This document shows positions 1,447 through 59,429 of a stretch of 64,000 nt of DNA, in pieces. The stretch comes from Escherichia phage FEC19, in the sequence record MH816966; one strand, 5' to 3'. Position numbers and translations under genes: made by a program. A model generated the notes under the pieces. It was not told the origin of the DNA, searched no databases, and saw only the letters and a program-made list of their open reading frames with translations. Position 1 is the stretch's first letter; every line of letters begins with the position of its first letter.

Positions 1447-1920
1447 CTAGTGGCGGGAGAATTGCTCACCCTCTTTGGCCGCCTCTCCAAAATCCTTGTA
1501 GAAATCATCCATGGAACGGCCCATTTTACTATTGCCGTTTTCATCAATCATTGTGATGCCGTAGATGATATTCAGTTCACGAATGGCATTAAGCTTGGCT
1601 GACGCCGCGACTTCTGGATCACGCACAAGCTTCACTAAATTGTGGATGGAACTCTTTACGCTCCACAATTCTTTCAATGGCATCTCTTCCATACGCTTTT
1701 TGTAGCGCATCTTGTAGTACGGATTGCGCTGAGTGCAGAGGATTCGCTGGCCAGTGTAGTTATCGGTCGCAACCTCCATGCCAAATACTAGTGCAAAAGC
1801 TGCGCGCATGTCATGTCCCTGAATAACAAGGTCAATGAACTCATCGAATAACGCCTGATTATGCTCTGCAAATCGTGGGTCTTCAAAGTCTTCAGGCATT
1901 GCTACATAATCTTGACTCAT
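1447..1920 (-). CDS. hypothetical protein (start moved to internal Met MSQDYV)
   Basis: ORF 1447..2115 trimmed; sigma70-like promoter (TTGAAT / TGTATAAT) at ~1965-1995 lies inside the longer ORF. Confidence 0.5.
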   Translation of the reverse strand: MSQDYVAMPEDFEDPRFAEHNQALFDEFIDLVIQGHDMRAAFALVFGMEVATDNYTGQRILCTQRNPYYKMRYKKRMEEMPLKELWSVKSSIHNLVKLVRDPEVAASAKLNAIRELNIIYGITMIDENGNSKMGRSMDDFYKDFGEAAKEGEQFSRH

Positions 1921-2139
1921 AGTGCAAATCCCATAGTGCAAATTAATAGTGTGAATTATACAATGATTGAACATTATATTCAAGTGCAGATTGATGTTCA
2001 AATTGGCTGTAAACGTACATAAATCATAGTGCTGAATGAATATCGGACCGTGGTGCGTGGTGTACTGTTTGATACGTATAAAAGAAATCCATCCCTTTCG
2101 CCGCTTGTTATGCAAATCAATGACTTAGCCGCAGCTGGC

Positions 2140-2450
2140 TGGTTGAAGCGTATCATGACGTATCATCCGTATCGCCGCAAGTCTTTGTTTTTATTTATAT
2201 CTTACGGATAATACGTATAAATATAAGTTTAGTATAAGTATGAGGATGTAGAAAAAAATTAATTTAAATTAATTCAAAATGGAGTTAATTGTTTTTTTCA
2301 AAGTTGTATAAAGTATAGCGGCGACGCGTATCATCCGTATCATCCGTAAGATGTACCACTGAACCCAGTCGCGGCGCACCATAGAAGTGTGTGGAGTGAA
2401 CTACGGATAGGTCCAAATCTTACGTCATTATACGCTTAAATTCTATGCGT
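2140..2450. repeat. composite intergenic element copy 1: multiple TACGGATGA/TCATCCGTA 9-mers in both orientations, AT-rich palindromic core, GCGTATAATGACGTA box
   Basis: A ~45-bp block (ataaagtat.gcgg..acgcgtatcatccgtatcatccgtaagat) is near-identical to 54420-54468. Confidence 0.8.
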
Positions 2451-2720
2451 AAGGTTAGCCAGCTAACTATATCTCCTTTTTAATTTCAAGCGGCAATCCC
2501 AGAGACGGCGCAGCCTACAGGCCCACACACCACGGTACACGCCCCAAAACCTAGTGATTCCCTCTCCAATACCACAACACCACAGTACAATATTCTTCCA
2601 AATTCGCACACATATTCAAGACACAAAAATCACGTCACAATACTCACACCCCCACCATCCTCTAATAGATTTACACAAATCAATCGCTTTATCCGATAAT
2701 AAAGACTCACAAGCAACAAG

Positions 2721-9977: not shown

Positions 9978-10625
9978 TTATCCTGTGGCCTGCATATTGC
10001 GTACATACTTCTGCTCTAATGAATAGATGAAGTCGGCGACCGTCAATCCTTTTGTGTGCCACTCATACATTGTGTAGCCTGTATTCAGGAAATAGCCGCG
10101 CACCTTGTCCATTGCTTCAGCTTCCTCCATGGAAGCCATCAGCGCGGCGACGTTATCATAAGAAGGCACAAATCCCTTCTTGCGTAGCGCATTGCGCAAA
10201 TCTTTAGTTCTGAATCCAATCTTGCACAGGTCATCACGGCCCGTTGAAGATGCAACCTTCGGCAGTGCAAGGAACTCTTTGAGGAACATCGAGATGTTCA
10301 GGTCGCCTGCATCATCAAGCTTCTGGAGTCGGTTGCGACCGCGACCCTTGAATTCACTTGCACGAGGGTGAGCGCCAAAACAATGCGCCCCTTCCAATTT
10401 AGGGTCGATGATCATCAAATCTTTGCCTACGCGCAATTCAACGTAGTAAAGGTATGTCTCATCGACAAGCTTCGTGCGTTTACAGGTGATGGAGTCCTTA
10501 TCGTACCCAAAACCACGCAACACGGTTGAAATCATCCGGTTCATTTCTTCTCCATGAACGTCACTCTCTTTGTTCAGTTCACCGAGATGTTGAAAGAATT
10601 TAGCGATGTTGATTGCTTTATTCAT
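9978..10625 (-). CDS. hypothetical protein
   Basis: 215-aa ORF; stop overlaps start of upstream NTPase gene. Confidence 0.5.
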   Translation of the reverse strand: MNKAINIAKFFQHLGELNKESDVHGEEMNRMISTVLRGFGYDKDSITCKRTKLVDETYLYYVELRVGKDLMIIDPKLEGAHCFGAHPRASEFKGRGRNRLQKLDDAGDLNISMFLKEFLALPKVASSTGRDDLCKIGFRTKDLRNALRKKGFVPSYDNVAALMASMEEAEAMDKVRGYFLNTGYTMYEWHTKGLTVADFIYSLEQKYVRNMQATG

Positions 10626-12295
10626 CAGAATTCATCCTTATCTCTTCCTAAAGAACGTTTGCGTTCAATAACCTTCTTCAAGAATTCAATATCTTCAGGG
10701 TCAGACTCGTCGCGGATAAGATACGCTAAGATAGTCATCAAATCAGAAATGTATTCCCCTGCTTCATTCTTAATCAGCGGCGTAAAGTAACCACGCTGGT
10801 TGCGATAGGTTGCAGGCTCAAATCCAAGCTTCGACATGTGCGGCGCAAGGGTACGTGAGAAAGGCGACTTGCCGCACTTAGCTCTGAATCCCATAGCGAT
10901 TGCACCACTGGTGATGTGCCAGCGTCCGCTGTGATGTCGGTCATAAGGCGCGGTGATGACGACTTCAACAAGGTCGTTGTCGACCATCTCGTCACGGATA
11001 ACGCCGCGAGCGCGTTCCATTTCGTTCTTGCTGAACTCAGTAAGCATACGAGATGTCTCACCGACAAAGGCGTTATAACCTGCTTCGCCGTGCTTCTCCA
11101 TCCACGCAGCGCACTCAGCCATCAGCTGCCAAACGTCTTCTTTCAAAGTTGAAAGGTCAGCTTGGAAGTCTTTAGACCAGTTCGGTTGCCCGTCCTTGTC
11201 GGCGAGTTGGCCAACAAAGATAGGATACACACGACGGTTGCCTGTATCGTCACGTTGCATGCCTGCGTATTCGTTGCCGTCCATGATAGCAATCCACTGG
11301 CGTGGTTTAACCTGCGTGTCTTCAAATTTGAAGTCCAGGTCATCTTCCGTCTTAGTCAGGAATGCTTTCATGTTTTCGATGTCGGCCTTTTTAAAGCCTG
11401 TCATCTCACCAACGTTCGCGATAATTGAGCGACCCGTAATAGCTCGCAAGAACGGGTTGAAGTTCTGCGCGGCCAAGTTCAACGGAATCGGTGTTGCGTG
11501 GCGGTCGTTCATAATAGCTTCGCAAAGTAGCTTACTAAAATAACTCTTCCCTGCGTTCTGGCCGCCGATGAGCGCAATGGAGATTGGCGCTTGACAGCCA
11601 GGGTTGGTCAGGCGGTTATAGAGCGATAGCCAAAAATACACACCGATTTGTCGGTTTAACTCTGTATCGAACGGTCGGAATAGCTCGATAAGGTATTTCT
11701 CGATGCGCGCAGTGCCGTCCCATTCAGGAAGCTTCTTGTAGAAGAAGTCCATCAGGTCGTCGCGCTGATAACGCATGGCCCATTCCTTATAGGATTGAGC
11801 GACCTGACGTGAGTTTGGGTTGGACAGACCTGCTGCGTCGACAGCGGCAACTATCTCTGTGACTTCCAATGTACGGTCGGTGAATGTTTCGCCGCGATGG
11901 TCGACTAAGCGTCCACGAAAAGTATCTTTGTGAGGGAATGGGACAATGCCGCTTCCCTTATCAAACAACGCGTCGAAAACCGCATAACGGTTCATGTCAC
12001 TCGTCCGGTCCGCCTGAAGAACAAAATCATCTTTCGTCGGTTTGTAGTGAGGGAACTTGATTACCTGAAGTGAGGCGAGCAAACGTGCTCTTTCAACCAA
12101 GTCTTCTTCGCCGTAGCACTCCATGCGCTCTGCATCTTTCTCAACAGCCTTATGCTGGAGGCTGATTTTAGCTCTGGTGCCTTGCTGCTCTGCCGCTTGC
12201 ATCTCTTCTGACACACCAGCGTCTTGAATTTCGTCAAAGATTGCACCAAATTCATCACCTGTATCCTCTGGAAGATTGTCATGTTCAATTGACAT
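10625..12295 (-). CDS. VirE/D5-like P-loop NTPase, putative replication helicase
   Basis: Walker A IALIGGQNAGKSYFSKLL; size and layout like phage/plasmid primase-associated helicases. Confidence 0.6.
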   Translation of the reverse strand: MSIEHDNLPEDTGDEFGAIFDEIQDAGVSEEMQAAEQQGTRAKISLQHKAVEKDAERMECYGEEDLVERARLLASLQVIKFPHYKPTKDDFVLQADRTSDMNRYAVFDALFDKGSGIVPFPHKDTFRGRLVDHRGETFTDRTLEVTEIVAAVDAAGLSNPNSRQVAQSYKEWAMRYQRDDLMDFFYKKLPEWDGTARIEKYLIELFRPFDTELNRQIGVYFWLSLYNRLTNPGCQAPISIALIGGQNAGKSYFSKLLCEAIMNDRHATPIPLNLAAQNFNPFLRAITGRSIIANVGEMTGFKKADIENMKAFLTKTEDDLDFKFEDTQVKPRQWIAIMDGNEYAGMQRDDTGNRRVYPIFVGQLADKDGQPNWSKDFQADLSTLKEDVWQLMAECAAWMEKHGEAGYNAFVGETSRMLTEFSKNEMERARGVIRDEMVDNDLVEVVITAPYDRHHSGRWHITSGAIAMGFRAKCGKSPFSRTLAPHMSKLGFEPATYRNQRGYFTPLIKNEAGEYISDLMTILAYLIRDESDPEDIEFLKKVIERKRSLGRDKDEF

Positions 12296-13604: not shown

Positions 13605-14687
13605 CTATTTTATGCCACCTGCGCGACGATTTATCATATCAAGTTGATTCTCAATATAAGGCATGACTACTGCTTCAACAAAAGCGGTCCAGCCTTTCTT
13701 GCCTTCACCTTTCCGGTGACAGTCGTGAGCGCAACCGAAAACGAATTCATGTTCAGCGCCAGGGATTGGGCCTCGAAAATAAGCGCCGTATGGGTCGCCG
13801 TTGGTGTGCTCTTCACCCCAAGGACAGATGATGCGGCATTTACCTGACATGTTTTCAACCACATCGCCATCGGACCCTTCGCCCATCTTATTGCGCGCAA
13901 GGATTTGCTGGGCTATTTTATACCAAACAGCATCATATTTGTATTCGTCAACGTCGATTTGAATTTCACGCTTTTGCGGCATAACGACGTGGAAACCGAA
14001 GGCTTGGCAAATCTCTTCGATTGTGTAGCGCAAGGAATAGTCTGCATGGACAAGTCGGCAGCGGAACGGGTCGCCGTTCTCATCGACATATTTATAGGGG
14101 CCGTCGTGAGTCACACGCTTGTTGTTGATGCACCCAGGAACACGGCCCACGCGCGTCACGTCTTTAATCGTGTTGTCGCCGCCCTTCTTGAGTACCATGT
14201 TTACGAAAGACCCAAGGAATGCTTTGAACTGAATAAGATGGTCAATCGGTTCTTTAAAGAAGTACCACAGCTGATGGTTGTTCGGCGAAGTCTCGACGAT
14301 GACGGTTGGTTTTAGGCGCTCGAAAAAGAATTCCAAATCTAAATCGCCCTTTGACCCTTTACCGTGCCCAATGTCGTCGACCATCATCGCCATGCCATGA
14401 CCAAAGGCCGATTCCGTGCGCCAGTATCGCATCTCGCCTGTCTTTGGGTTGGGAGACTTACGCATTGAACTTATGCAGGCGTAACCGTTCTGATGTTGCA
14501 TCAGCGGCTTGCCAAGCTTCCAAGGCTTAGGCCAGAAGCTGCTGTTAATCTTTTTGCCGCGCTCGTCAGTCTGCACTGTTGCTTCAGGCGCAAACACGGT
14601 CATGACGCGTTCATCTTCTGGAATGCCTCTTTGGAGTTCCGTCAAAAACTCTTCGATTATTTTTGCTTCTTCTCTTAAACTAGCCAT
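13605..14687 (-). CDS. archaeo-eukaryotic-type primase (prim-pol-like) with C-terminal Cys/His zinc motif
   Basis: Ordered AEP-like motifs: MVDDIG (DxD), TSPNNHQLWYFF (sGxGxH-like), KDVTRV; C-terminal CPWGEEH...CAHDCH. Confidence 0.55.
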   Translation of the reverse strand: MASLREEAKIIEEFLTELQRGIPEDERVMTVFAPEATVQTDERGKKINSSFWPKPWKLGKPLMQHQNGYACISSMRKSPNPKTGEMRYWRTESAFGHGMAMMVDDIGHGKGSKGDLDLEFFFERLKPTVIVETSPNNHQLWYFFKEPIDHLIQFKAFLGSFVNMVLKKGGDNTIKDVTRVGRVPGCINNKRVTHDGPYKYVDENGDPFRCRLVHADYSLRYTIEEICQAFGFHVVMPQKREIQIDVDEYKYDAVWYKIAQQILARNKMGEGSDGDVVENMSGKCRIICPWGEEHTNGDPYGAYFRGPIPGAEHEFVFGCAHDCHRKGEGKKGWTAFVEAVVMPYIENQLDMINRRAGGIK

Positions 14688-50935: not shown

Positions 50936-52075
50936 TTAGATACCAGTCATACGGACGACTGCGAAAGGACGCTTGAGCAGAACGCCTGCTGTTGCGTTTG
51001 CGTAGTCTTCAACGTAGCTCTTAGCACGTTTCTCAACGCCCAGAGTCATGAACTTAGTCTGAACCAGCTGGCTGAATACGGAACCATCGTCGCTTGAACC
51101 ATCAATTGAGGAATCGATGTGATCAGCGTACAGATATGCCACGTTCAGGAAAGTCGGGTCACTGCCAAGTGCGCCGTTGAGTTCCGGTGCAGATTTGATC
51201 TTCATCTTCGGATAAGTCTGGGTGATCCAGTCACGTACAGAAATACCGAAGTCGGTGGTGTTTGACAGCCAATCAATAGAGTTGGTCGGCAGCGCCAGAG
51301 TCATATCAACCTTCTCTGGATCAATCTGGTCCTGAGAGTTGACACGGATTTGACGAACCATCAAACGGATGTCTGCAGTCACCTGTTGGAAGGTCGCAGT
51401 AGCCCAGCCGGAAGTGGTGTTTGAAGTCATCGCCGCTGGCAGGTTTGGATCATTCAGGAAGCCGAACGTGCGGTTGTTCCCGTTGTACCAGCCATAGAAG
51501 CCGATTGCGTTACGCATGATTTCCAGAGATACAGCAGCCTGCTGGCGCTTGGTCTCTGCGGAGTTCAGACGCATCGCAGACGCGCGACCTTCTTCCAGCA
51601 TGCCGACTGCCATGCCCATTTCACCACGAACGATGGAGCGGCGTTCAAAGTTTACGTTCCAGCTTGCCAGAGGAATAGAGGTGAAATCACCATATTCAAC
51701 TGCGGTGCCAGCTGGTTCAACGATACCCTGAACGATTTCCGCATCTTCCCACTGACCAACGGTGTCAATACCAACCAGCTCATCGATTTTACGAGCGGCG
51801 GTCATGATTTTGACGAAGCCAGGCAGCCACTGTTGCAGGAATTGCAGCGGGGTCGGGATTGATGGCGTGGTCTGCGGCGCAGTAAACGCGGCGTCACCTA
51901 CGCGGAAAGCGCCTGCACGGTTTAAGTGCTCAATCTGATCACGCACAATCGCGGAATCAAACACAATACCGATACGAGCAAGCTGGGAAACAGCCGCGTC
52001 GGTTACGGATTGCATATCAAAAGGACGCACCTTGCTCGCTGGGAGGCGAGAGTGTGTTTGGCTAATGCGAGTCAT
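50936..52075 (-). CDS. major capsid protein, putative
   Basis: 379 aa, position after protease/scaffold, followed by stem-loop. Confidence 0.6.
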
Positions 52076-52709: not shown

Positions 52710-54128
52710 TTATTCCCCTTTCAACCAAGCTTCAAACGCTTCGTCAGTTGCTGCAGAATCCGCAGCGGCCTTTTGTTTTGCGACTACACGCTGTTTTTGA
52801 CCGTGTTCAACGCCGCGCAGATAATTATCCACCACGTCAAACTCAGCACCATCAACGCACTTCAAGCCTAACTTTTTAGCGCCATATTTCGCTACGGACT
52901 TGGAGTCCATAGTTGCATGATCAAAGGCACCAACAACTTTAGACAGGCGCTGGTAGAGGCTATTCTTACGAGCAGAATCAGCGTAGAAAGCAGCAACTGC
53001 TGAATCAGATGCCATTGAGTGTTCCCCTTTTGCTGGACCTGGCGACGCTTTCGCCGCTTTTGTCGGTTTGTCATCTTTTTCGACCGAAGCCCCCTTTACG
53101 TTGCTGTTTTGCAGGCCGCTAACCACATCTTCAGCTTTGTCGCAAGGTGATACATCTTCAGCCTTGACTTCAACTTCTTCGTCTTTGACTTCGGCTTCAA
53201 CTTCTTCTTCATCACCTACCGCGCCACCTTTCAGTTTTGCAATAAGTGCTTCGATTTGGCTGATCAGTTGCGGAAGCTCGCCGCCAGCGTGAGATTCAGT
53301 TTCAACTTCAAACTTCTCTTCACCTTCTGGAGTCTCTTCAGCTTCTGCTTTGACTTCTGGATCAACCATCACTTCTTCACGTTCTTCGGTTGAATCCTTC
53401 TCTTCTGCTTTCACTTCAACTTCGTCCTGATGAGCAGCTTCGGTGCTCTCTTCATTCAGAAATTGTTCGAGCGCAGGGATCAGTGACTTCAGCTGTTCAA
53501 CAGCATTATCACGCGCTTTACCTTTTAACGGTTTTGGCATGTCTAAATCCTCGTTGGATGGTGTTACAGTCGTCAAACAAAGATGGTCAAAGCAACGACC
53601 ATCCAGCACCCGTGCACCTGGTACTCGACCAACGTCCACGAGAGCAATGTGGTTGCCGCGAAGAGTTGTCTGTACCACTTCATACGGCTGCCCGTCAAAC
53701 TCTCCAGACTGTATGATGAATTCACAGTCATAGCCCAAAGACAAGTCAACCTTTCCAGAATCGATGGCTTTCTTCAGACGACGGCTAAAAACTTTAAGGT
53801 CGCCGCGCATCCATGGCTTGTCATAATAAACATTGCCAGTTAGAACGCCATCAACGCCATACTCTTCGGGTGCTGTGTTATCCTCATCACCTTCGAATCC
53901 AGAAAGCATTTCGTGATTGTCGATGAAAGGGATATTTTTGAATGAATCTATCGCTTCGGGGTCTTTCACCGCTGACTCTGGGCGATAAACTTTTACGATG
54001 CGATTCGGATCACCATCAAGTCCAACCTGACCTGCAGAATAATCAAAAATGCCAAATGACGAAATGGGACAACCCACAATCGTCAAGAATCCATTTTTGT
54101 CAATTTCGCGTGCCGTTTGCATTCGCAT
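52710..54128 (-). CDS. prohead protease-like N-terminal domain fused to acidic scaffold-like region
   Basis: Long E/K/V-rich acidic repeats (EVEAEVKDEEVEVKAED) after a ~200-aa N-terminal domain. Confidence 0.5.
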   Translation of the reverse strand: MRMQTAREIDKNGFLTIVGCPISSFGIFDYSAGQVGLDGDPNRIVKVYRPESAVKDPEAIDSFKNIPFIDNHEMLSGFEGDEDNTAPEEYGVDGVLTGNVYYDKPWMRGDLKVFSRRLKKAIDSGKVDLSLGYDCEFIIQSGEFDGQPYEVVQTTLRGNHIALVDVGRVPGARVLDGRCFDHLCLTTVTPSNEDLDMPKPLKGKARDNAVEQLKSLIPALEQFLNEESTEAAHQDEVEVKAEEKDSTEEREEVMVDPEVKAEAEETPEGEEKFEVETESHAGGELPQLISQIEALIAKLKGGAVGDEEEVEAEVKDEEVEVKAEDVSPCDKAEDVVSGLQNSNVKGASVEKDDKPTKAAKASPGPAKGEHSMASDSAVAAFYADSARKNSLYQRLSKVVGAFDHATMDSKSVAKYGAKKLGLKCVDGAEFDVVDNYLRGVEHGQKQRVVAKQKAAADSAATDEAFEAWLKGE

Positions 54129-54151
54129 CCACCCTCAAATAAGTATTGTGT

Positions 54152-54180
54152 ATTATATCTAATGAAAAAAACTTAGGCAA
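54152..54180 (-). promoter_or_regulatory. sigma70-like promoter (TTGCCT-17-TATAAT) for capsid operon
   Basis: Read from reverse complement; GAGGGTGG RBS before ATG 54128. Confidence 0.55.
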
Positions 54181-54224
54181 ACAATAATTATGGTTTGAAT
54201 ATGTATAACAACCGATATAGCCGC

Positions 54225-54530
54225 GCCTTAATTAGTGTGATACGGATGATACGGATAAAATGAGGCGTATTTTTATCCGTATCGGTGTATAAGCCGCGCT
54301 ATCACTGGTGTGCTACGGATGATACGGATGATACGGATACTTTTCATATATAAGAGTTTATAAAAAAAATAAAATTAAATTAGATATATAATTTTAAATT
54401 AATTTATTTGAATTCCTATAAAGTATCGCGGCAACGCGTATCATCCGTATCATCCGTAAGATTCTTTTGAAAACAACTACTTACTTGATACGGATGATAC
54501 GTCATTATACGCGTAAAATCCTGCGGCAAT
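54225..54530. repeat. composite intergenic element copy 2 (TACGGATGA 9-mers, 13-bp perfect inverted repeat, AT-rich core, GCGTATAATGACGTA box)
   Basis: Homologous to 2140-2450; triple tandem tacggatga at ~54282-54308. Confidence 0.8.
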
Positions 54531-54545
54531 CCATTGCCAGGCGAT

Positions 54546-54683
54546 TCAGTGAATATTAAAAAGCACTCCAGCAACTAAAACGCCAATCAGCATCGAGTCG
54601 TAAACAGCCCATTTCCAAGAAAGCAAAGAGTTGCAATTAATATTTCGCACTTTAACGTAACGTGACTGAATAATCTTTTGCAT
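54546..54683 (-). CDS. small membrane protein (45 aa, C-terminal TM), not in ORF track
   Basis: AAGAGGA RBS; MQKIIQSRYVKV...MLIGVLVAGVLFNIH. Confidence 0.35.
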   Translation of the reverse strand: MQKIIQSRYVKVRNINCNSLLSWKWAVYDSMLIGVLVAGVLFNIH

Positions 54684-54693
54684 AACTTCCTCT

Positions 54694-55614
54694 TTAGTTC
54701 AACTTAATTGCGGTGATCTGTCCGTAAACGGTAGATGTCAATGCGTCTGTGCATTGATAGTTTAGATACACATTGCCAGGCGCGGCAAGAGTAATTATCT
54801 TTGTTGGAATATTGCCGCCGAAACGACCTGCAGCCCGAATGCCAGCAGACATCGTGAATGCATCATCCGTAATATCTGAATTACTTGTTGACAATTTTAC
54901 TGTAATTCCGGTATTCGCTTGAACTCCTTCTGTTGCGACAGTCAACTGACTTGCTGTCACAAGCCATTTCCCTGCAGGCAGGTTTAATGTTGCCAGATTC
55001 ACCAGAGTTGTCGGAGGATTGCTTACACTATTGCTTGTGTTTTGCACATTGCTTGCAGCAGCATTAAGAACTCCAGAACCATCAATTGATAGTGTCGTTC
55101 CTACTTTTACGCCACCCAAGGTTGATGCTGATGCAATCGGTAACGAGTATTGAGTAACACTAATTGTACCGTCACCTGCAACACTTATGCCACTTCCTAT
55201 CTTGACACCGCCGAGAACAGAAGCCGTTGCCGCTGGTAACGTGTATTGGTTGCCGCTGGATTTGACTACCTTAACGGCGACAGCATTCTTGGACCCTCCA
55301 GACTCCATGCCTATAATCACCGCTTCTCCAAAAGCGATGGTGATTGTAGATGCAGTTAAACCAGTCTGCACGTCTGTTATGTTCATTTTGGGAACTGAAA
55401 GTGTCAGATTCGGCTTGCTGGTAGAATCGCCATCATTACCGATCATAAAGAATTGACCAACTGAATTGTATCCAGACGCCAATGGCGGACTCAATGGAAC
55501 AATCAGGTTTTTATCGGATGTAAATTCTGAAACAATCGCCAAACCGTTAGCATATACAGCAGGCAATACTGGCGTTTGTCCAGATAGAGGAAACGTGCTG
55601 ATTGGTATCGTCAT
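54694..55614 (-). CDS. fiber-like structural protein with internal tandem repeat
   Basis: Repeat YTLPAATASVLGGVKIGSGISVAGDGTISV / YSLPIASASTLGGVKVGTTLSIDGSGVLNA. Confidence 0.5.
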   Translation of the reverse strand: MTIPISTFPLSGQTPVLPAVYANGLAIVSEFTSDKNLIVPLSPPLASGYNSVGQFFMIGNDGDSTSKPNLTLSVPKMNITDVQTGLTASTITIAFGEAVIIGMESGGSKNAVAVKVVKSSGNQYTLPAATASVLGGVKIGSGISVAGDGTISVTQYSLPIASASTLGGVKVGTTLSIDGSGVLNAAASNVQNTSNSVSNPPTTLVNLATLNLPAGKWLVTASQLTVATEGVQANTGITVKLSTSNSDITDDAFTMSAGIRAAGRFGGNIPTKIITLAAPGNVYLNYQCTDALTSTVYGQITAIKLN

Positions 55615-55621
55615 AATGACC

Positions 55622-56473
55622 TCAAATGATTGGTATTTTTCTGCACTTGCAGTGTATTGCCCATCCAGGAGGACCGATGTCACCCTTTTTGAACTTCAAT
55701 TCGCCGCCAACTTCCCATAGGCGCTTGTCATCAAGTTTAAATCTCATTCCGTCGACGTGTTCATGAGAGATTCGCGGCTCCTTTCCTGCTCCTGAGTGCG
55801 CCCATTCAAATTCTTCAACTCCATTCTGGCGCATTCTTTCATCGCTCAGAACGCAATACAATTTGCTTGTCTGGTCTTTGGCGATTAAGTCGACTCTCTT
55901 TGCAGAGAAGTGTTTTACGTTTCGCAGCGCCGCCTGAATGCCTGACGTGCCTTGCTGGGCTGGGTCGGGCGAAGTCAGTGAAAGCATAACTGCTTCGTAC
56001 ACTCTGTTGTGAATATCCTCGCCAACCTTGGTCACTAGAGTCGTGTTGAACGTCTCGCTTGTTCTAAGAGTGTTCTCAACGAATTTGTTATATGTGGCCT
56101 TTGGCGCTTCTATGCCTGCGGACTTAAGGCTGGCGAATGTAGCAGAAGTGGCACCCTTTTCGACCGACTTGATAAAATCAGCGGCAATCTTCGACCCAAC
56201 ACGCGCAAACGCCTTTGCCCATTTCAGCTGCAGACGTTTCATAAGAGTTTGGAATGTTGAATCAGCAGAGTCTTGCGCAAAGAACTTCTGCACCTGCTTC
56301 TTTTCAAGCCATTCTGAAATGCCTGCCTGATAGTCATCAATCATCGCATAGCAAAGACCTTTCATCTCACGACGGTAGGCCATCGCAATAGCGTTTGATG
56401 GGATTATCGGACTGCCGCGCCCGATTCTATCGGGTGAGCGGCGTTCACGTTTTTTCGAAGCTTTAAAAGCCAT
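55622..56473 (-). CDS. head morphogenesis protein, MuF/SPP1 gp7-like
   Basis: C-terminal EEFEWAHSGAGKEPRISHEHVDG motif; start trimmed to MAFKAS. Confidence 0.7.
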   Translation of the reverse strand: MAFKASKKRERRSPDRIGRGSPIIPSNAIAMAYRREMKGLCYAMIDDYQAGISEWLEKKQVQKFFAQDSADSTFQTLMKRLQLKWAKAFARVGSKIAADFIKSVEKGATSATFASLKSAGIEAPKATYNKFVENTLRTSETFNTTLVTKVGEDIHNRVYEAVMLSLTSPDPAQQGTSGIQAALRNVKHFSAKRVDLIAKDQTSKLYCVLSDERMRQNGVEEFEWAHSGAGKEPRISHEHVDGMRFKLDDKRLWEVGGELKFKKGDIGPPGWAIHCKCRKIPII

Positions 56474-56474
56474 A

Positions 56475-58850
56475 TCAACCTTGCTTCGGTGAATTAGTAG
56501 GATTATTGAGTGCTCCGTATGCTTGAGAGCAATCACCCTTCAACCACTCTTTGAATGAGTTCACATCTAATTCGTGGATTGAGTCGAATCCGTTCCAACC
56601 GTTACCAAATGATGCCTGATAAGCTTCTTTTGCTTCTTCTGCTGAATCGAATCCAAGCATGCACTTGTGTTCATCGAACTCGCCAGAGTAGTTATCGTTT
56701 TGGTTCACGATAAAGACCTTCGGCGACTTCAGATTTGTGCCAACAAAGCAGTCGACTTCATCGCCGTCCGCGCCCTTGGTGCCTTTGATGAATCCGTAGT
56801 GGTGCGGCATCTTGACTGCCCATTCACCGTCAAGGCTGTTTCCTCTACGGATGCTGTTGCGAGGATTCTCAATCCCAAGAATCAGCCCATGCAACTTCAT
56901 CTTAGGTAATGATGCTGCGTCCATCTTTCCAACGTTGTGTCGTAAGTTGACGACATTACCTTTGACGCTTGGAAGGGTAGACGGTTGCACCGACCGTGAA
57001 TCTTTTTGAGGGTCAAAATCCACATCCTGACCTTCTTTCAGGTAGTAATCCGCAATACCCTCCAGACCTTCTTTCAACTGCGTTAGGACATCAACCTGAT
57101 GGCTTGATTCATCGTCGGTATCGTCCATGTTGATTTCGACAGGCGCTCTGTCAGGGTTTTCCGCCAACTCACCGCGCGCGGCACCTTCTGGCATAATGCC
57201 TGTTTCACTGTAGAACTGGCCGCCCATCTTAACGACATCAGCTTTCGCCTGTTCAATATCGGCCTTACCTTGTAGGACTTCACCAGCAGACTTGCCAAGC
57301 AATGCCATATTCTCTGGAGACATCCCTGGTGTTTCTTCTGCCGCATCTTCCGGCAGACGGTTGTAGCCGCTGTTTTTGTCGTCTTTGATGCGGTCGCGCT
57401 CTTCATCAGGAGAAATGACGCCAGCATCAATAAGAGTTTTGCCAGTGTTGGCTCGCTTATCATTGATTTCTGCAAGTTGAGTAGCAGTAAGTGAGCCAAC
57501 TGGTTCCCATGCAACCTTAACATCGACATCCACCCCTTCTGATTTGAGAAGGATTTTGTAATGGCGGTCGAGAATTTTTGTCAGGTCATGCTGCTGGCAC
57601 GTTTCCAACTCTTCGTGATAGCTGACCATCTCGAATTCACCAGTGGCGTTAAAGCCTTTTGGCGAAGTCCCAAGCAGTTTGGTCGACGGAACTTTTGCGA
57701 TTGCGGCCACCAGCTGGTACTGGTTCATGATGATGCTGTCGAAGTCTGACAAGTTGATATCAAACTGGTCCATCTCTTCTTTTTGGCCAAGCACTTTGAC
57801 TGCATAGTTGTCGCGGTACTTGATCCACATCATCAGACGTTCTGCAAAAGACCGCTCATTGGCAATCGCCTTGTCAACGTCGGTCCGCAGCGTGGTTGTA
57901 CGCTTGGACATCGCCAGCAATGGCGCTTCGTTAGCGGTACGTTCAGCGGCATAGATGCGTTCATAAATCTGCTGAGTCAGAGGAATGCCGCCGTAAATAT
58001 AAGTTGGCTTGAGAATATCAGCTGGCTCATCATTGCGCAAGATGATGAGGTGACTTCGATGATAACGTTGTCCACTGATCACCCAGTATTCTGGATCATA
58101 GAAGTGCTGTGATGCAGGGTCGGCGGTGTTTTCAGACGTCAAAAATGGCATCATCCAATAAGGGTCGACCTGAATGATTCCCTTATAAGACCCCTTTGTC
58201 ACACCATCAATGTTAAAAGGCTTGCTGTAATATTCTGGGTCATCGCTACGCACATCAAATATGATGACGCGGATACCAAAAATATTTTTGAATCGTTCGG
58301 CTTCAACTAAGTGCTCTTTGATATTAAATTCTTTATCAATTTGCTTTAGGCGTTCGCTTGCCTGTACTGACAATTCTGACTCAGAACTGGATTTGACTTC
58401 CCATCCTTTACGGACCGCATCGCGGCCTACCATGGAACAAGCCTTGTTCACCAGCCAGTGCTGCGCGATGATGGCGCAAGCTTGATATCCGATAAATGAT
58501 TGCGATAAGTACCAGTTTTGCAACTGAATAGGTACTGTGTATGGGTTGACTTGCCCTTCTGAACTGATGTTCTTTAAGGCATTATCCATAACTTTTTTGG
58601 ATACTGTTGCGGAATCGACTGAGCGACCTTTTATGATTGCAACACCATCGCCATTAATATCAGGCTCATATAAAGGGAAGTCATCAACCGTTTTAAAGGT
58701 CGGTCGATTGCTTTCAGTCTTTTCCCAGCGTTGACCGCTGCCGCGCCTTTCAAGGCGTTCAAACGGTGCCAATGGGTCGCCTGGCGGCATCTCCGCTGGT
58801 TCGGCTTCTGGTTGCGTCTTCTCCCAGAGTTTTATGCCAAGAATTTTCAT
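56475..58850 (-). CDS. portal protein with C-terminal extension
   Basis: 792 aa between terminase and MuF; AGGTGG RBS before trimmed start MKILGIK. Confidence 0.65.
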   Translation of the reverse strand: MKILGIKLWEKTQPEAEPAEMPPGDPLAPFERLERRGSGQRWEKTESNRPTFKTVDDFPLYEPDINGDGVAIIKGRSVDSATVSKKVMDNALKNISSEGQVNPYTVPIQLQNWYLSQSFIGYQACAIIAQHWLVNKACSMVGRDAVRKGWEVKSSSESELSVQASERLKQIDKEFNIKEHLVEAERFKNIFGIRVIIFDVRSDDPEYYSKPFNIDGVTKGSYKGIIQVDPYWMMPFLTSENTADPASQHFYDPEYWVISGQRYHRSHLIILRNDEPADILKPTYIYGGIPLTQQIYERIYAAERTANEAPLLAMSKRTTTLRTDVDKAIANERSFAERLMMWIKYRDNYAVKVLGQKEEMDQFDINLSDFDSIIMNQYQLVAAIAKVPSTKLLGTSPKGFNATGEFEMVSYHEELETCQQHDLTKILDRHYKILLKSEGVDVDVKVAWEPVGSLTATQLAEINDKRANTGKTLIDAGVISPDEERDRIKDDKNSGYNRLPEDAAEETPGMSPENMALLGKSAGEVLQGKADIEQAKADVVKMGGQFYSETGIMPEGAARGELAENPDRAPVEINMDDTDDESSHQVDVLTQLKEGLEGIADYYLKEGQDVDFDPQKDSRSVQPSTLPSVKGNVVNLRHNVGKMDAASLPKMKLHGLILGIENPRNSIRRGNSLDGEWAVKMPHHYGFIKGTKGADGDEVDCFVGTNLKSPKVFIVNQNDNYSGEFDEHKCMLGFDSAEEAKEAYQASFGNGWNGFDSIHELDVNSFKEWLKGDCSQAYGALNNPTNSPKQG

Positions 58851-58956
58851 TGTTAACGCCACCTGACAGTGAAAGGGAATCAATCTATATTATAAATATT
58901 CATGTGTTTGTAAGCAAATGATATGTATGGTGATCATAAATAGTTCATAAAATATT

Positions 58957-59012: not shown

Positions 59013-59429
59013 ATGAGCACAACAATTGTATTTGTCGTCCTACACAACGGCGAAGTCGTTAACGTATGCGAATATGAAGAACTGGCAAAGGCCACTGCTG
59101 CGCGATACGAAGGTGCTACTATTGACCCGTGGATTTTAGATGCGCGCAACGTCTTGCAGGCGACTTTGGATGAGTGGCTGTTGGGTCGCAAAGTCTATCC
59201 AGTAGACGACATCGACTCAATTCAAGGTGAAACAGTATATTTTGAAGATGAATGCGTTCGCGGCATCGGCAAATTTATGGGATTGTGCCCATCTTCATCC
59301 AAAAATAAATTTTATCGTATTCAAGTTGAAGAAAACGATATGTTTGACAAAGTTACGCGCTCGATTGTTCCTGACGGCGGCACTCCAATCTTTATGGCAG
59401 AATCAGACATCAAGGGGATCATCAAATGA
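59013..59429 (+). CDS. hypothetical protein in opposite-strand cassette
   Basis: 138-aa ORF with strong RBS. Confidence 0.5.
   Translation: MSTTIVFVVLHNGEVVNVCEYEELAKATAARYEGATIDPWILDARNVLQATLDEWLLGRKVYPVDDIDSIQGETVYFEDECVRGIGKFMGLCPSSSKNKFYRIQVEENDMFDKVTRSIVPDGGTPIFMAESDIKGIIK

What the first reader, a model, noticed from the sequence alone, without database searches (positions are those of the whole stretch)
54130..54540. Copy 2 of the iteron element sits directly upstream of the capsid-operon promoter
A near-consensus promoter (TTGCCT-17-TATAAT, ~54152-54180) drives the protease/scaffold and capsid genes. The iteron element starts ~50 bp upstream of it and contains a perfect 13-bp inverted repeat (gatacggataaaa ... 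ttttatccgtatc, ~54248-54282). That placement is typical of activator or repressor sites that time late gene expression.
Basis: partly seen in the sequence, partly recalled or inferred. Interest (0 to 1): 0.6.

Follow-up and report, generated by a model that had tools for sequence, protein, structure and literature searches.

The report
Second replication-origin-like iteron element in phage
The repeats upstream of the capsid-operon promoter are real. They look most like a second replication origin of this E. coli phage, a twin of the element where the phage DNA is cut for packaging, rather than an on/off switch for late genes.

Summary
The window is a Wifcevirus (ECML-117/WFH-like E. coli myovirus, about 68 kb, 3.7-kb terminal repeat). 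All genes near the finding are on the minus strand.

**Observation: confirmed.**
- TTGCCT-17-TATAAT lies at 54180-54152 (minus), 24 nt before the prohead protease gene.
- GATACGGAT occurs 9 times in the window against 0.26 expected.
- The 13-bp inverted repeat is exact.
- A perfect 22-bp inverted repeat of iterons flanks a 101-nt centre containing the window's lowest-GC 100 nt (16% GC).

**What it most likely is.** Short tandem iterons point in opposite directions around an AT-rich core. This is the layout of SaPI-type origins. The phage encodes a full-length structural homologue of the SaPI1 Rep1 initiator-helicase, plus a RepB-like primase.

**Comparative evidence.**
- Four lineages (Wifcevirus, Myosmarvirus, Pbunavirus, one metagenomic) each carry two such elements with their own iterons. 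One lies upstream of terS and one upstream of the protease.
- The terS-side copy holds the packaging cut or terminal-repeat boundary (window 2280|2281).
- That copy alone carries a 22-mer box and a cut-site motif, both absent from copy 2.

**Verdict.** Copy 2 is probably a second origin (confidence 0.55), not a late-gene operator. No function has been tested.

The parts
54152..54180 (-). Sigma-70-like promoter TTGCCT-17-TATAAT of the protease-scaffold-capsid operon
   Evidence: The -10 block is conserved in MyoSmar and PA8P1, and TAATTATTGTT just upstream of the -35 hexamer is shared with PA8P1.
52710..54128 (-). Prohead protease/scaffold gene (472 aa), the first gene downstream of the element
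   Evidence: Annotated as head maturation protease in Bas99, MyoSmar and PA8P1.
54239..54283 (.). Iteron cluster A: two direct GATACGGAT units plus one inverted unit; contains the perfect 13-bp inverted repeat 54248-54260 / 54271-54283
54219..54338 (+). Two composite direct repeats (AGCCGCGC box, 13 nt, then iterons) starting at 54219 and 54292. The second runs into iteron cluster B (54312-54338, three tandem units).
   Evidence: families D1 and D2.
54339..54433 (.). AT-rich centre, overlapping the lowest-GC 100 nt of the window (16% GC, 54321-54420); candidate DNA-unwinding region
   Evidence: Nearly invariant in 9 Wifcevirus genomes.
54417..54462 (-). Block of 46 nt that differs at only 2 positions from copy 1 (2308-2353). 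It contains TATAAAGTAT, a CGCGGC box (54427-54432) and iteron cluster C (54434-54460, three units inverted relative to cluster B).
   Evidence: Phage Bas101 lacks exactly one 9-bp unit here.
54487..54513 (+). Iteron cluster D: GATACGGAT, GATACGTCA, TTATACGCG
54520..54538 (.). Distal GC box CCTGCGGCAATCC with the small hairpin GGCAATCCATTGCC; end of the element
   Evidence: A related box, GCCGCGAGGCTTTAAC, is present in the PA8P1 protease-side element.
2060..2450 (.). Copy 1, the terS-side paralogue, with the same iteron / AT / iteron layout
2280..2281 (.). Physical genome end, i.e. boundary of the 3.7-kb direct terminal repeat, inside the AT-rich centre of copy 1. The repeat extends towards lower window coordinates.
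   Evidence: Five records opened at the terminal repeat (WFH, WFC, Ro157lw, SP13, Mansfield) start at this base. The Mansfield boundary was predicted by PhageTerm.
2364..2385 (-). Unique 22-mer TCTATGGTGCGCCGCGACTGGG, found only in the terS-side copy and identical in MyoSmar; candidate terminase recognition box
   Evidence: It falls in the 34-nt gap of copy 2 in the copy 1 / copy 2 alignment.
1450..1923 (-). Small terminase gene (157 aa)
   Evidence: E = 9e-33 to PDB 7UXE, the phage E217 small terminase. The Mansfield record annotates its orthologue as small terminase.
10625..12295 (-). VapE-like SF3 helicase, candidate iteron-binding initiator
   Evidence: Pfam PF05272. E = 4e-11 to 7PDS, SaPI1 Rep1. 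AlphaFold model with pLDDT 86. Foldseek best hit 7PDS at E = 6e-16 over about 480 columns.
13605..14687 (-). RepB-like primase
   Evidence: Pfam PF16793, E = 1.6e-36.

Best explanation
The 54219-54538 element is a replication-origin-type module. Tandem 9-bp iterons (GATACGGAT) sit in opposite orientation on the two sides of a roughly 100-bp AT-rich core.

**Inferred mechanism.**
- The phage's own SaPI-Rep1-like SF3 initiator-helicase (window 10625-12295) binds the iterons through its variable C-terminal winged-helix region.
- It loads one hexamer on each side and melts the AT-rich core.
- The RepB-like primase (13605-14687) then primes DNA synthesis.

**Relation to copy 1.** The genome carries two such modules.
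- The terS-side module (copy 1) also carries terminase-specific signals: a unique 22-mer box and a conserved cut-site motif. It is where the packaging cut and terminal-repeat boundary are made.
- Copy 2 lacks those signals and would act only as an origin. It could be a second origin, as with SPP1 oriL/oriR, or a partner site, as with P4 ori/crr.

**Relation to the promoter.** The strong sigma-70-like promoter beside each copy fires away from the core. It may help open the core rather than be controlled by it.

**Shown versus inferred.** Shown here: the anatomy, the paired lineage-specific iterons, the terminus at copy 1 and the homology of the helicase. Inferred: who binds the iterons, and any replication function.
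For: 1. **Architecture.** Three iterons on each flank form a perfect 22-bp inverted repeat around the AT-rich core, which overlaps the lowest-GC 100 nt of the window. There are 10 units with up to 2 mismatches, or 12 counted in register.
2. **Match to the SaPI origin.** As described in PMC9371898, that origin has 6-12 short iterons, an AT-rich centre, at least two iterons per side pointing in opposite directions, and two Rep hexamers that self-load.
3. **Cognate protein by sequence and fold.** The phage encodes a VapE-like protein with phmmer E = 4e-11 to 7PDS, SaPI1 Rep1. The AlphaFold model (pLDDT 86) has 7PDS as its best PDB match by nine orders of magnitude, aligned over nearly the whole target.
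4. **Cognate protein: specificity region and primase.** Residues 436-505 of the model form a helix/strand/helix/helix/hairpin, i.e. winged-helix-like. The C-terminal region is the variable part of a 46-sequence alignment. A separate primase gene lies upstream, as pri-rep does in SaPIs.
5. **Position next to the helicase gene.** In MyoSmar, Pbunavirus and a metagenomic lineage, the terS-side copy lies directly downstream of this helicase gene.
6. **Paired lineage-specific iterons.** Within a genome the two copies share 37-50 9-mers in the three-genus comparison and 30-70 among the paired IMG/VR contigs. Between lineages they share about 2-15, and up to 29 between Wifcevirus and Myosmarvirus. 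The iterons are GATACGGAT, TACTTTTCG, GGTAATTT and GATAGTTG. This is the pattern expected for a fast-evolving specificity domain.
7. **Modularity.** The 22-mer box and the motif TTAACTCC|ATTTTGAA occur only in the terS-side copy. They are conserved across genera or in a 75%-identity relative.
8. **Purifying selection.** Positions 54100-54420 are almost invariant in 9 genomes whose flanking genes differ by up to about 6%. One genome lost exactly one 9-bp unit.
Against: - There is no experimental evidence of replication initiation at either copy in any of these phages.
- Cumulative GC skew follows transcription direction and shows nothing at either copy. A Pbunavirus paper places its skew minima inside the replication genes instead.
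- Copy 2 is not next to the helicase gene. In Wifcevirus even copy 1 is 8 kb away from it and stays with terS, which also fits a terminase-linked role.
- The iterons have a period of 8-9 bp, against 5-6 bp in SaPIs.
- The terminase cut falls inside the terS-side copy in three genera. The iterons could therefore be small-terminase sites, as the hexamers of P1 pac are.
- The homology covers the helicase. It does not establish the DNA specificity of its C-terminal domain.
Confidence: 0.55

Rival explanations
1. Copy 2 is a non-cutting paralogue of the packaging (pac) site. The small terminase binds the iterons at both copies. At copy 1 this positions the large terminase for the cut. At copy 2 it serves another purpose, for example feedback control of protease/scaffold/capsid expression or sequestration of terminase.
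For: - The cut or terminal-repeat boundary lies between the distal iterons and the AT-rich core, or inside it, in Wifcevirus, MyoSmar and Pbunavirus JG024, 29-45 nt from the distal iteron cluster.
- The terS gene is the immediate neighbour of copy 1 in all lineages. It stays with the element in Wifcevirus even though the helicase gene is 8 kb away.
- The P1 pac site has the same plan, short repeats on both sides of a central cut (own knowledge, Sternberg and Coulby 1987).
- Both copies precede promoters of morphogenesis genes.
Against: - The features that track the cut, the 22-mer box and the cut-site motif, are separate from the iterons and are missing from copy 2.
- No record or published terminus maps to copy 2.
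- A second terminase-loading site in a phage with exact terminal repeats has no obvious benefit. Yet copy 2 is better conserved than copy 1: 93.6-99.6% identity over window 54100-54600, against 91-98% for copy 1.
- Small terminases of Wifcevirus and MyoSmar are only 35% identical yet share an identical 22-mer and different iterons. This fits box = terminase and iterons = another protein.
Confidence: 0.22
2. The iterons are operator or activator sites for a phage-encoded (or host) transcription factor that times the protease/capsid promoter, and likewise the terS promoter.
For: - Both copies lie upstream of near-consensus sigma-70-like promoters that drive packaging and head genes, and this layout is conserved in four lineages.
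- Contiguous short repeats in direct and inverted arrays resemble the binding arrays of ribbon-helix-helix repressors (own knowledge).
- Pbunavirus 14-1 is thought to use extra phage factors for some of its promoters.
Against: - The iterons do not overlap the promoter. The nearest cluster is centred about 120 bp upstream of the expected transcription start, and the element extends to nearly 400 bp upstream of it.
- The AT-rich core and the 22-bp inverted repeat have no role in this model, yet they are nearly invariant.
- No candidate regulator was found next to either copy.
- The sister element is a DNA cut site.
- Homologous sigma-70 promoters of phage 14-1 are active without phage factors in reporter assays. 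Their identity with this promoter is not established.
Confidence: 0.13
3. Copy 2 is a functionless relic of a duplication of the pac/ori region, or a recombination hot spot kept similar to copy 1 by gene conversion.
For: - The two copies share a block of 46 nt that differs at only 2 positions, which could reflect gene conversion.
- One metagenomic assembly breaks exactly at this repeat.
Against: - The position upstream of the protease gene is conserved in four lineages that share little nucleotide identity.
- Each lineage keeps symmetric iteron arrays in that copy.
- The element is close to invariant within the genus.
Confidence: 0.04

Closest known systems
SaPI/PICI replication origin with its Rep (SF3) initiator-helicase, e.g. 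the SaPI1 Rep1 origin
   Same: - Short tandem iterons split into two sets that point in opposite directions around an AT-rich centre, with about 6-12 units in total.
- The same genome encodes a Rep1-like helicase with a C-terminal winged-helix-like domain, and a separate primase.
- In three related phage lineages one copy lies directly downstream of the helicase gene.
   Different: - The iteron period is 8-9 bp rather than 5-6 bp.
- There are two copies per genome.
- The host genome is a virulent 68-kb myovirus rather than a satellite.
- Copy 2 lies inside the head-gene cluster, far from the helicase gene.
- The other copy doubles as the packaging cut site.
- Binding and replication have not been tested.
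Phage P1 pac site (also SPP1 pacL/pacC/pacR)
   Same: Clusters of short repeats flank the region where terminase cuts. This holds for the sister copy 1, where the terminus lies in the centre. The P1 and SPP1 details are from own knowledge.
   Different: - Copy 2 has no mapped terminus.
- It lacks the 22-mer box and the cut-site motif.
- It is not next to terS.
- P1 uses Dam-methylated hexamers, and there is no GATC in either copy here.
Two-site iteron systems: SPP1 oriL/oriR (G38P) and P4 ori/crr (alpha primase-helicase)
   Same: Two distant elements in one phage genome carry the same initiator-binding repeats next to AT-rich DNA, and one of them lies outside the replication module (own knowledge).
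   Different: - The initiator families differ.
- The SPP1 and P4 repeats are not arranged as a symmetric palindrome.
- Neither coincides with a terminal-repeat boundary.
Plasmid iteron origins (RepA, pi or TrfA type)
   Same: Repeated initiator sites lie next to an AT-rich unwinding region.
   Different: [quoted passage not shown]
- Here the units are 9 bp and symmetric.
- No DnaA-box match better than one mismatch to TTWTNCACA is shared by the two copies.

Membership tests
SaPI-type (SF3 Rep) replication origin | Short tandem iterons on both sides of an AT-rich centre | tested here: met
   Clusters A and B (54239-54338) and clusters C and D (54434-54513) flank an AT-rich core overlapping the window's lowest-GC 100 nt (16%).
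SaPI-type (SF3 Rep) replication origin | At least two iterons on each side pointing in opposite directions; 6-12 in all | tested here: met
   A perfect 22-nt inverted repeat covers two full units plus part of a third on each side. There are 10 units with up to 2 mismatches, or 12 counted in register. The criterion is taken from PMC9371898.
SaPI-type (SF3 Rep) replication origin | The genome encodes a Rep-type SF3 helicase with a C-terminal winged-helix domain, plus a primase | tested here: met
   For window 10625-12295: PF05272, E = 4e-11 to 7PDS Rep1, Foldseek E = 6e-16 over about 480 columns, and a winged-helix-like fold at residues 436-505. A RepB-like primase lies at 13605-14687.
SaPI-type (SF3 Rep) replication origin | [quoted passage not shown] | tested here: not met
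   Copy 2 is about 42 kb from the helicase gene, and copy 1 is 8 kb from it. The feature is met only by the terS-side copy of MyoSmar, Pbunavirus and the IMG/VR lineage 3300044683_000172.
SaPI-type (SF3 Rep) replication origin | Rep binds the iterons specifically and the element supports Rep-dependent replication | not testable with these tools
   This needs gel-shift or footprinting assays and a plasmid or marker-frequency replication assay.
Terminase packaging site (pac, or terminal-repeat boundary) | A virion DNA end maps to the site | tested here: not met
   All five records opened at the terminal repeat start at window 2280|2281 in copy 1, and none starts at copy 2. The JG024 read starts map to the terS-side element. 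Raw reads were not available to look for a minor peak.
Terminase packaging site (pac, or terminal-repeat boundary) | Presence of the conserved sequence elements that accompany the cut (22-mer box, TTAACTCC|ATTTTGAA) | tested here: not met
   Both are unique to copy 1.
Terminase packaging site (pac, or terminal-repeat boundary) | Adjacent to, or inside, the small terminase gene | tested here: not met
   terS lies at 1450-1923. The neighbours of copy 2 are a 45-aa ORF, the head-fibre gene and the protease gene.
Promoter operator or activator site | Binding sites overlap the promoter or lie within about 100 bp upstream of the transcription start | tested here: inconclusive
   The nearest iteron edge is 58 bp upstream of the -35 hexamer, and the centre of cluster A is about 120 bp from the expected start. 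No transcription start has been mapped experimentally.
Promoter operator or activator site | The same sites occur at other co-regulated promoters | tested here: met
   The only other iteron cluster lies upstream of the terS promoters.
Promoter operator or activator site | A cognate regulator is identified | not tested
   The neighbouring small ORFs have no DNA-binding Pfam hit. No wider search was made.
Plasmid-type iteron origin | Direct iterons of 17-22 bp, with DnaA boxes | tested here: not met
   The units are 9 bp and arranged symmetrically. No consensus DnaA box or IHF site is shared by the two copies.

The most novel reading that the evidence does not exclude
In this phage group the replication origin and the packaging start could be one and the same machine.

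- The Rep-like helicase bound to the iterons would open or re-replicate the DNA at the terS-side element.
- That event would create the substrate that terminase cuts, which would define the left boundary of the 3.7-kb terminal repeat and duplicate it.
- The protease-side twin would cooperate with it, either by looping as in P4 ori/crr or as the second fork source.

If true, this would give a concrete and testable mechanism for how long exact terminal repeats are generated.
Probability: 0.15. Interest if true: 0.8.

Novelty: new variant of a known kind. Interest (0 to 1): 0.55.

Why it matters
**Practical value.**
- Wifcevirus and its Pbunavirus relatives are used or proposed for phage therapy and biocontrol, and they replicate unusually fast. 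Their origins and packaging signals have not been defined in the papers I could search.
- A mapped origin and pac module would help genome rebooting and engineering, for example in deciding where not to insert or split fragments.
- It would also explain assembly breaks at this repeat.

**Biological value.**
- An origin-like module coincides with the terminal-repeat boundary in three genera.
- A conserved non-cutting twin is also present.
- Together these offer a way to study how long direct terminal repeats are made, a question that is still poorly understood outside T7.

Tried and rejected
- **Rfam.** A scan of 53900-54800 at E <= 1 returned only sub-threshold hairpin-type hits that reflect the palindrome. 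There is no evidence for an RNA gene.
- **Host-factor sites.** There is one IHF consensus site in copy 1 only. Neither copy has a good DnaA box or a GATC site, so this was not informative.
- **Cumulative GC and AT skew.** It turns at about 14 kb and 31 kb with gene orientation, not at either element. It cannot locate an origin here.
- **The 22-mer as a phage-specific promoter.** I tested whether it is one of the 'CTGGG' promoters reported for Pbunavirus 14-1. It is unique in the window apart from one degenerate neighbour, so it is not a recurrent promoter motif. The supplementary start-site tables of that paper were not available.
- **Helical phasing of the cut.** I considered a fixed phasing between the box and the cut. 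The distances are about 83, 74 and 68 nt, and the termini carry a +/- 5 nt uncertainty, so I dropped the idea.
- **The 52-aa ORF at 54416-54574 (minus).** Its translation is an iteron artefact (TDDTDDT) with a TTG start. I treated it as non-coding.
- **Co-variation to identify the iteron binder.** All four lineages differ in their iterons, their small terminase and the helicase C-terminus at once, so this could not discriminate.
- **Papers not held.** The E217 terminase paper and the 2009 PB1-like comparative paper could not be read.

Full report
**Context.** The window is 93-99% identical over 52-56 kb to the Wifcevirus records listed (ECML-117, WFH, WFC, Mansfield and the BASEL phages Bas98-100). 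A 28th record, a Pantoea phage, matched at 60-80% identity. These are E. coli and Shigella myoviruses of about 68 kb and distant relatives of the Pseudomonas Pbunavirus group. Around the finding, all genes are on the minus strand:
- portal gene, 56475-58883;
- MuF-like gene, 55622-56536;
- head fibre gene, 54694-55683;
- a 45-aa ORF, 54546-54683;
- a 417-bp non-coding gap, 54129-54545;
- prohead protease/scaffold gene, 52710-54128;
- a 212-aa structural gene;
- major capsid gene, 50936-52075.

**Observation.**
- The promoter TTGCCT-17-TATAAT lies at 54180-54152 on the minus strand.
- GATACGGAT has 9 exact copies in the window against 0.26 expected. Seven are at 54239-54495 and two at 2165 and 2333.
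- The 13-bp inverted repeat is perfect.
Three tandem units at 54312-54338 and three inverted units at 54434-54460 form a perfect 22-bp inverted repeat around 101 nt of AT-rich DNA.
- That AT-rich centre contains the lowest-GC 100 nt of the window, at 16%. The centre of copy 1 is second, at 18%.
- As single-stranded DNA, 54300-54470 folds at -34 kcal/mol with z = -7.7.
- Two more clusters, at 54239-54283 and 54487-54513, bring the count to 10 units with up to 2 mismatches, or 12 counted in register.

**The sister copy is the genome end.** Copy 1 (about 2060-2450) aligns with copy 2 in the same orientation and shares its plan, including a 46-nt block that differs at only 2 positions.
- The WFH record carries a 3,701-bp direct terminal repeat, and its first base lies in the AT-rich centre of copy 1.
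- Five records opened at the repeat start at the same base, window 2280|2281. They are WFH and WFC (Korf et al.), Ro157lw, SP13 and Mansfield (PhageTerm).
- The gene immediately downstream (1450-1923, minus) is the small terminase, with E = 9e-33 to the E217 small terminase structure 7UXE.
- No iteron cluster exists anywhere else in the genome, including at the other boundary of the repeat.

**The two-copy layout is old.**
- Serratia phage MyoSmar shares only about 17% nucleotide identity with ECML-117. It has a 470-bp gap upstream of its protease gene with its own repeats (TACTTTTCGTTTT) around an AT-rich centre.
- MyoSmar has a second such element beside its small-terminase homologue. Its PhageTerm repeat boundary (3559|3560) falls inside that element.
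- Pbunavirus PA8P1 and JG024 likewise have two elements, with GGTAATTT-type repeats.
- In JG024, 36 of 161 long nanopore reads start at 59,376 +/- 5, the proposed pac site. This maps between the distal repeats and the AT-rich centre of the terS-side element. PB1-type records such as PA8P1 start 2 nt away.
- A fourth, metagenomic lineage (IMG/VR 3300044683_000172) has GATAGTTG repeats in both places.
- Within a genome the two copies share 37-50 9-mers in the three-genus comparison and 30-70 among the paired IMG/VR contigs. Between lineages they share about 2-15, and up to 29 between Wifcevirus and Myosmarvirus.
- The same protein therefore very probably reads both copies, and its specificity changes from lineage to lineage.

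**What differs between the copies.** Two features occur only in the terS-side copy.
- The first is a unique 22-mer, TCTATGGTGCGCCGCGACTGGG (2364-2385, minus). It is identical in MyoSmar, although the small terminases are only 35% identical.
- The second is the sequence around the cut, TTAACTCC|ATTTTGAA. It is preserved in a relative whose helicase is 75% identical and whose iterons have drifted to GATACGT.
- Copy 2 has a 34-nt gap where the 22-mer would be, and it lacks the cut motif.
- The cut lies 68-83 nt from the box in the three genera.
- I therefore read the terS-side element as a shared iteron/AT module plus terminase-specific signals, and copy 2 as the shared module alone.

**Who reads the iterons.** The SaPI origin is described as follows (PMC9371898):
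- 6-12 short iterons directly downstream of rep;
- an AT-rich centre;
- at least two iterons per side pointing in opposite directions;
- two Rep hexamers that self-load, one on each side.

This is the anatomy seen here, and the phage has the matching proteins.
- It encodes a 556-aa VapE-like protein (10625-12295) with E = 4e-11 to 7PDS, which is SaPI1 Rep1 bound to DNA.
- An AlphaFold model built from a 46-sequence alignment (pLDDT 86) has 7PDS as its best PDB match, with E = 6e-16, about 480 aligned columns and a TM-score of 0.61 on the target. The next family scores 3e-7.
- Residues 436-505 form a winged-helix-like unit. The C-terminal part is the poorly conserved part of the family.
- A RepB-like primase is encoded upstream.
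- In MyoSmar, Pbunavirus and the metagenomic lineage, the terS-side element lies directly after this helicase gene and its terminator. In Wifcevirus, about 8 kb of small ORFs have been inserted between them.

**Selection.** In nine Wifcevirus genomes, copy 2 is nearly invariant from 54100 to 54420, including the AT-rich core. The flanking genes differ by up to about 6%. Bas101 has lost exactly one 9-bp unit.

**Promoter.** The -10 block (G/T)ATATAATACA is conserved before the protease gene in three genera, and TAATTATTGTT next to the -35 hexamer is shared with Pbunavirus. The promoter is therefore probably real. Sigma-70-type promoters of Pbunavirus 14-1 are active without phage factors. The iterons do not overlap the promoter. 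Because each copy has a strong promoter firing away from the AT-rich core, transcription may help to open the core. This last point is inference only.

**Verdict.**
- Best reading: an origin-type module, probably a second origin (0.55).
- Rivals: a small-terminase platform without cutting (0.22), a transcriptional operator (0.13), a relic (0.04).
- Nothing here shows function. The decisive experiments are binding assays, marker-frequency sequencing and a plasmid replication test.
- I found no description of these elements in the papers available to me on Wifcevirus, MyoSmar or Pbunavirus.

Noticed in passing
whole window: The hexamer CGCGGC is about three times over-represented on both strands: 95 hits against 33.2 +/- 5.9 in dinucleotide-preserving shuffles. 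It is also the core of the GC boxes that flank the iteron elements in all four lineages. The cause is unknown; it could be codon usage, or a modification or nicking motif.
   Followed up: partly
window 2480-2700: This is a strand-asymmetric non-coding tract, 69% A+C on the plus strand. It is the only 150-nt stretch in the window with G+T below 27%. Similar tracts lie beside the terS-side element in MyoSmar, JG024 and the metagenomic lineage, although on different sides of it. One also lies at the other terminal-repeat boundary of MyoSmar.
   Followed up: partly
window 2364-2385 (minus); L013 3634-3656: The 22-mer TCTATGGTGCGCCGCGACTGGG is identical between this E. coli phage and Serratia phage MyoSmar, despite about 17% genome-wide nucleotide identity. 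MyoSmar also has an inverted partner copy on the other side of its element.
   Followed up: partly
window 1450-1923 (minus): The small terminase gene is annotated as 'hypothetical protein' in most Wifcevirus records. Only Mansfield names it. It lies inside the terminal repeat, about 58 kb from the large terminase gene in the window (16.4 kb across the circular map), and is preceded by two overlapping near-consensus promoters at 2001-1955.
   Followed up: yes
L019 (IMG/VR 3300045988_152943), end of contig: A 68.5-kb metagenomic Wifcevirus contig ends exactly at iteron cluster C of copy 2. The block shared by the two copies probably breaks short-read assemblies.
   Followed up: no
L020 (Bas101), equivalent of window 54437-54445: One genome lacks exactly one 9-bp iteron unit. 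This is copy-number variation of the tandem repeat inside an otherwise invariant element.
   Followed up: no
L096 14560-15220 (Logan SRR26188688 contig, 72.5 kb): This is an undescribed relative whose helicase is 75% identical to the window's. It has the same gene order, but its iterons have shifted to GATACGT while the cut-site motif is kept.
   Followed up: partly
window 54546-54683 (minus): A 45-aa ORF just upstream of the element is conserved in position in MyoSmar and Pbunavirus. The vB_Eco4M-7 record notes a transmembrane segment in it. Its function is unknown.
   Followed up: no
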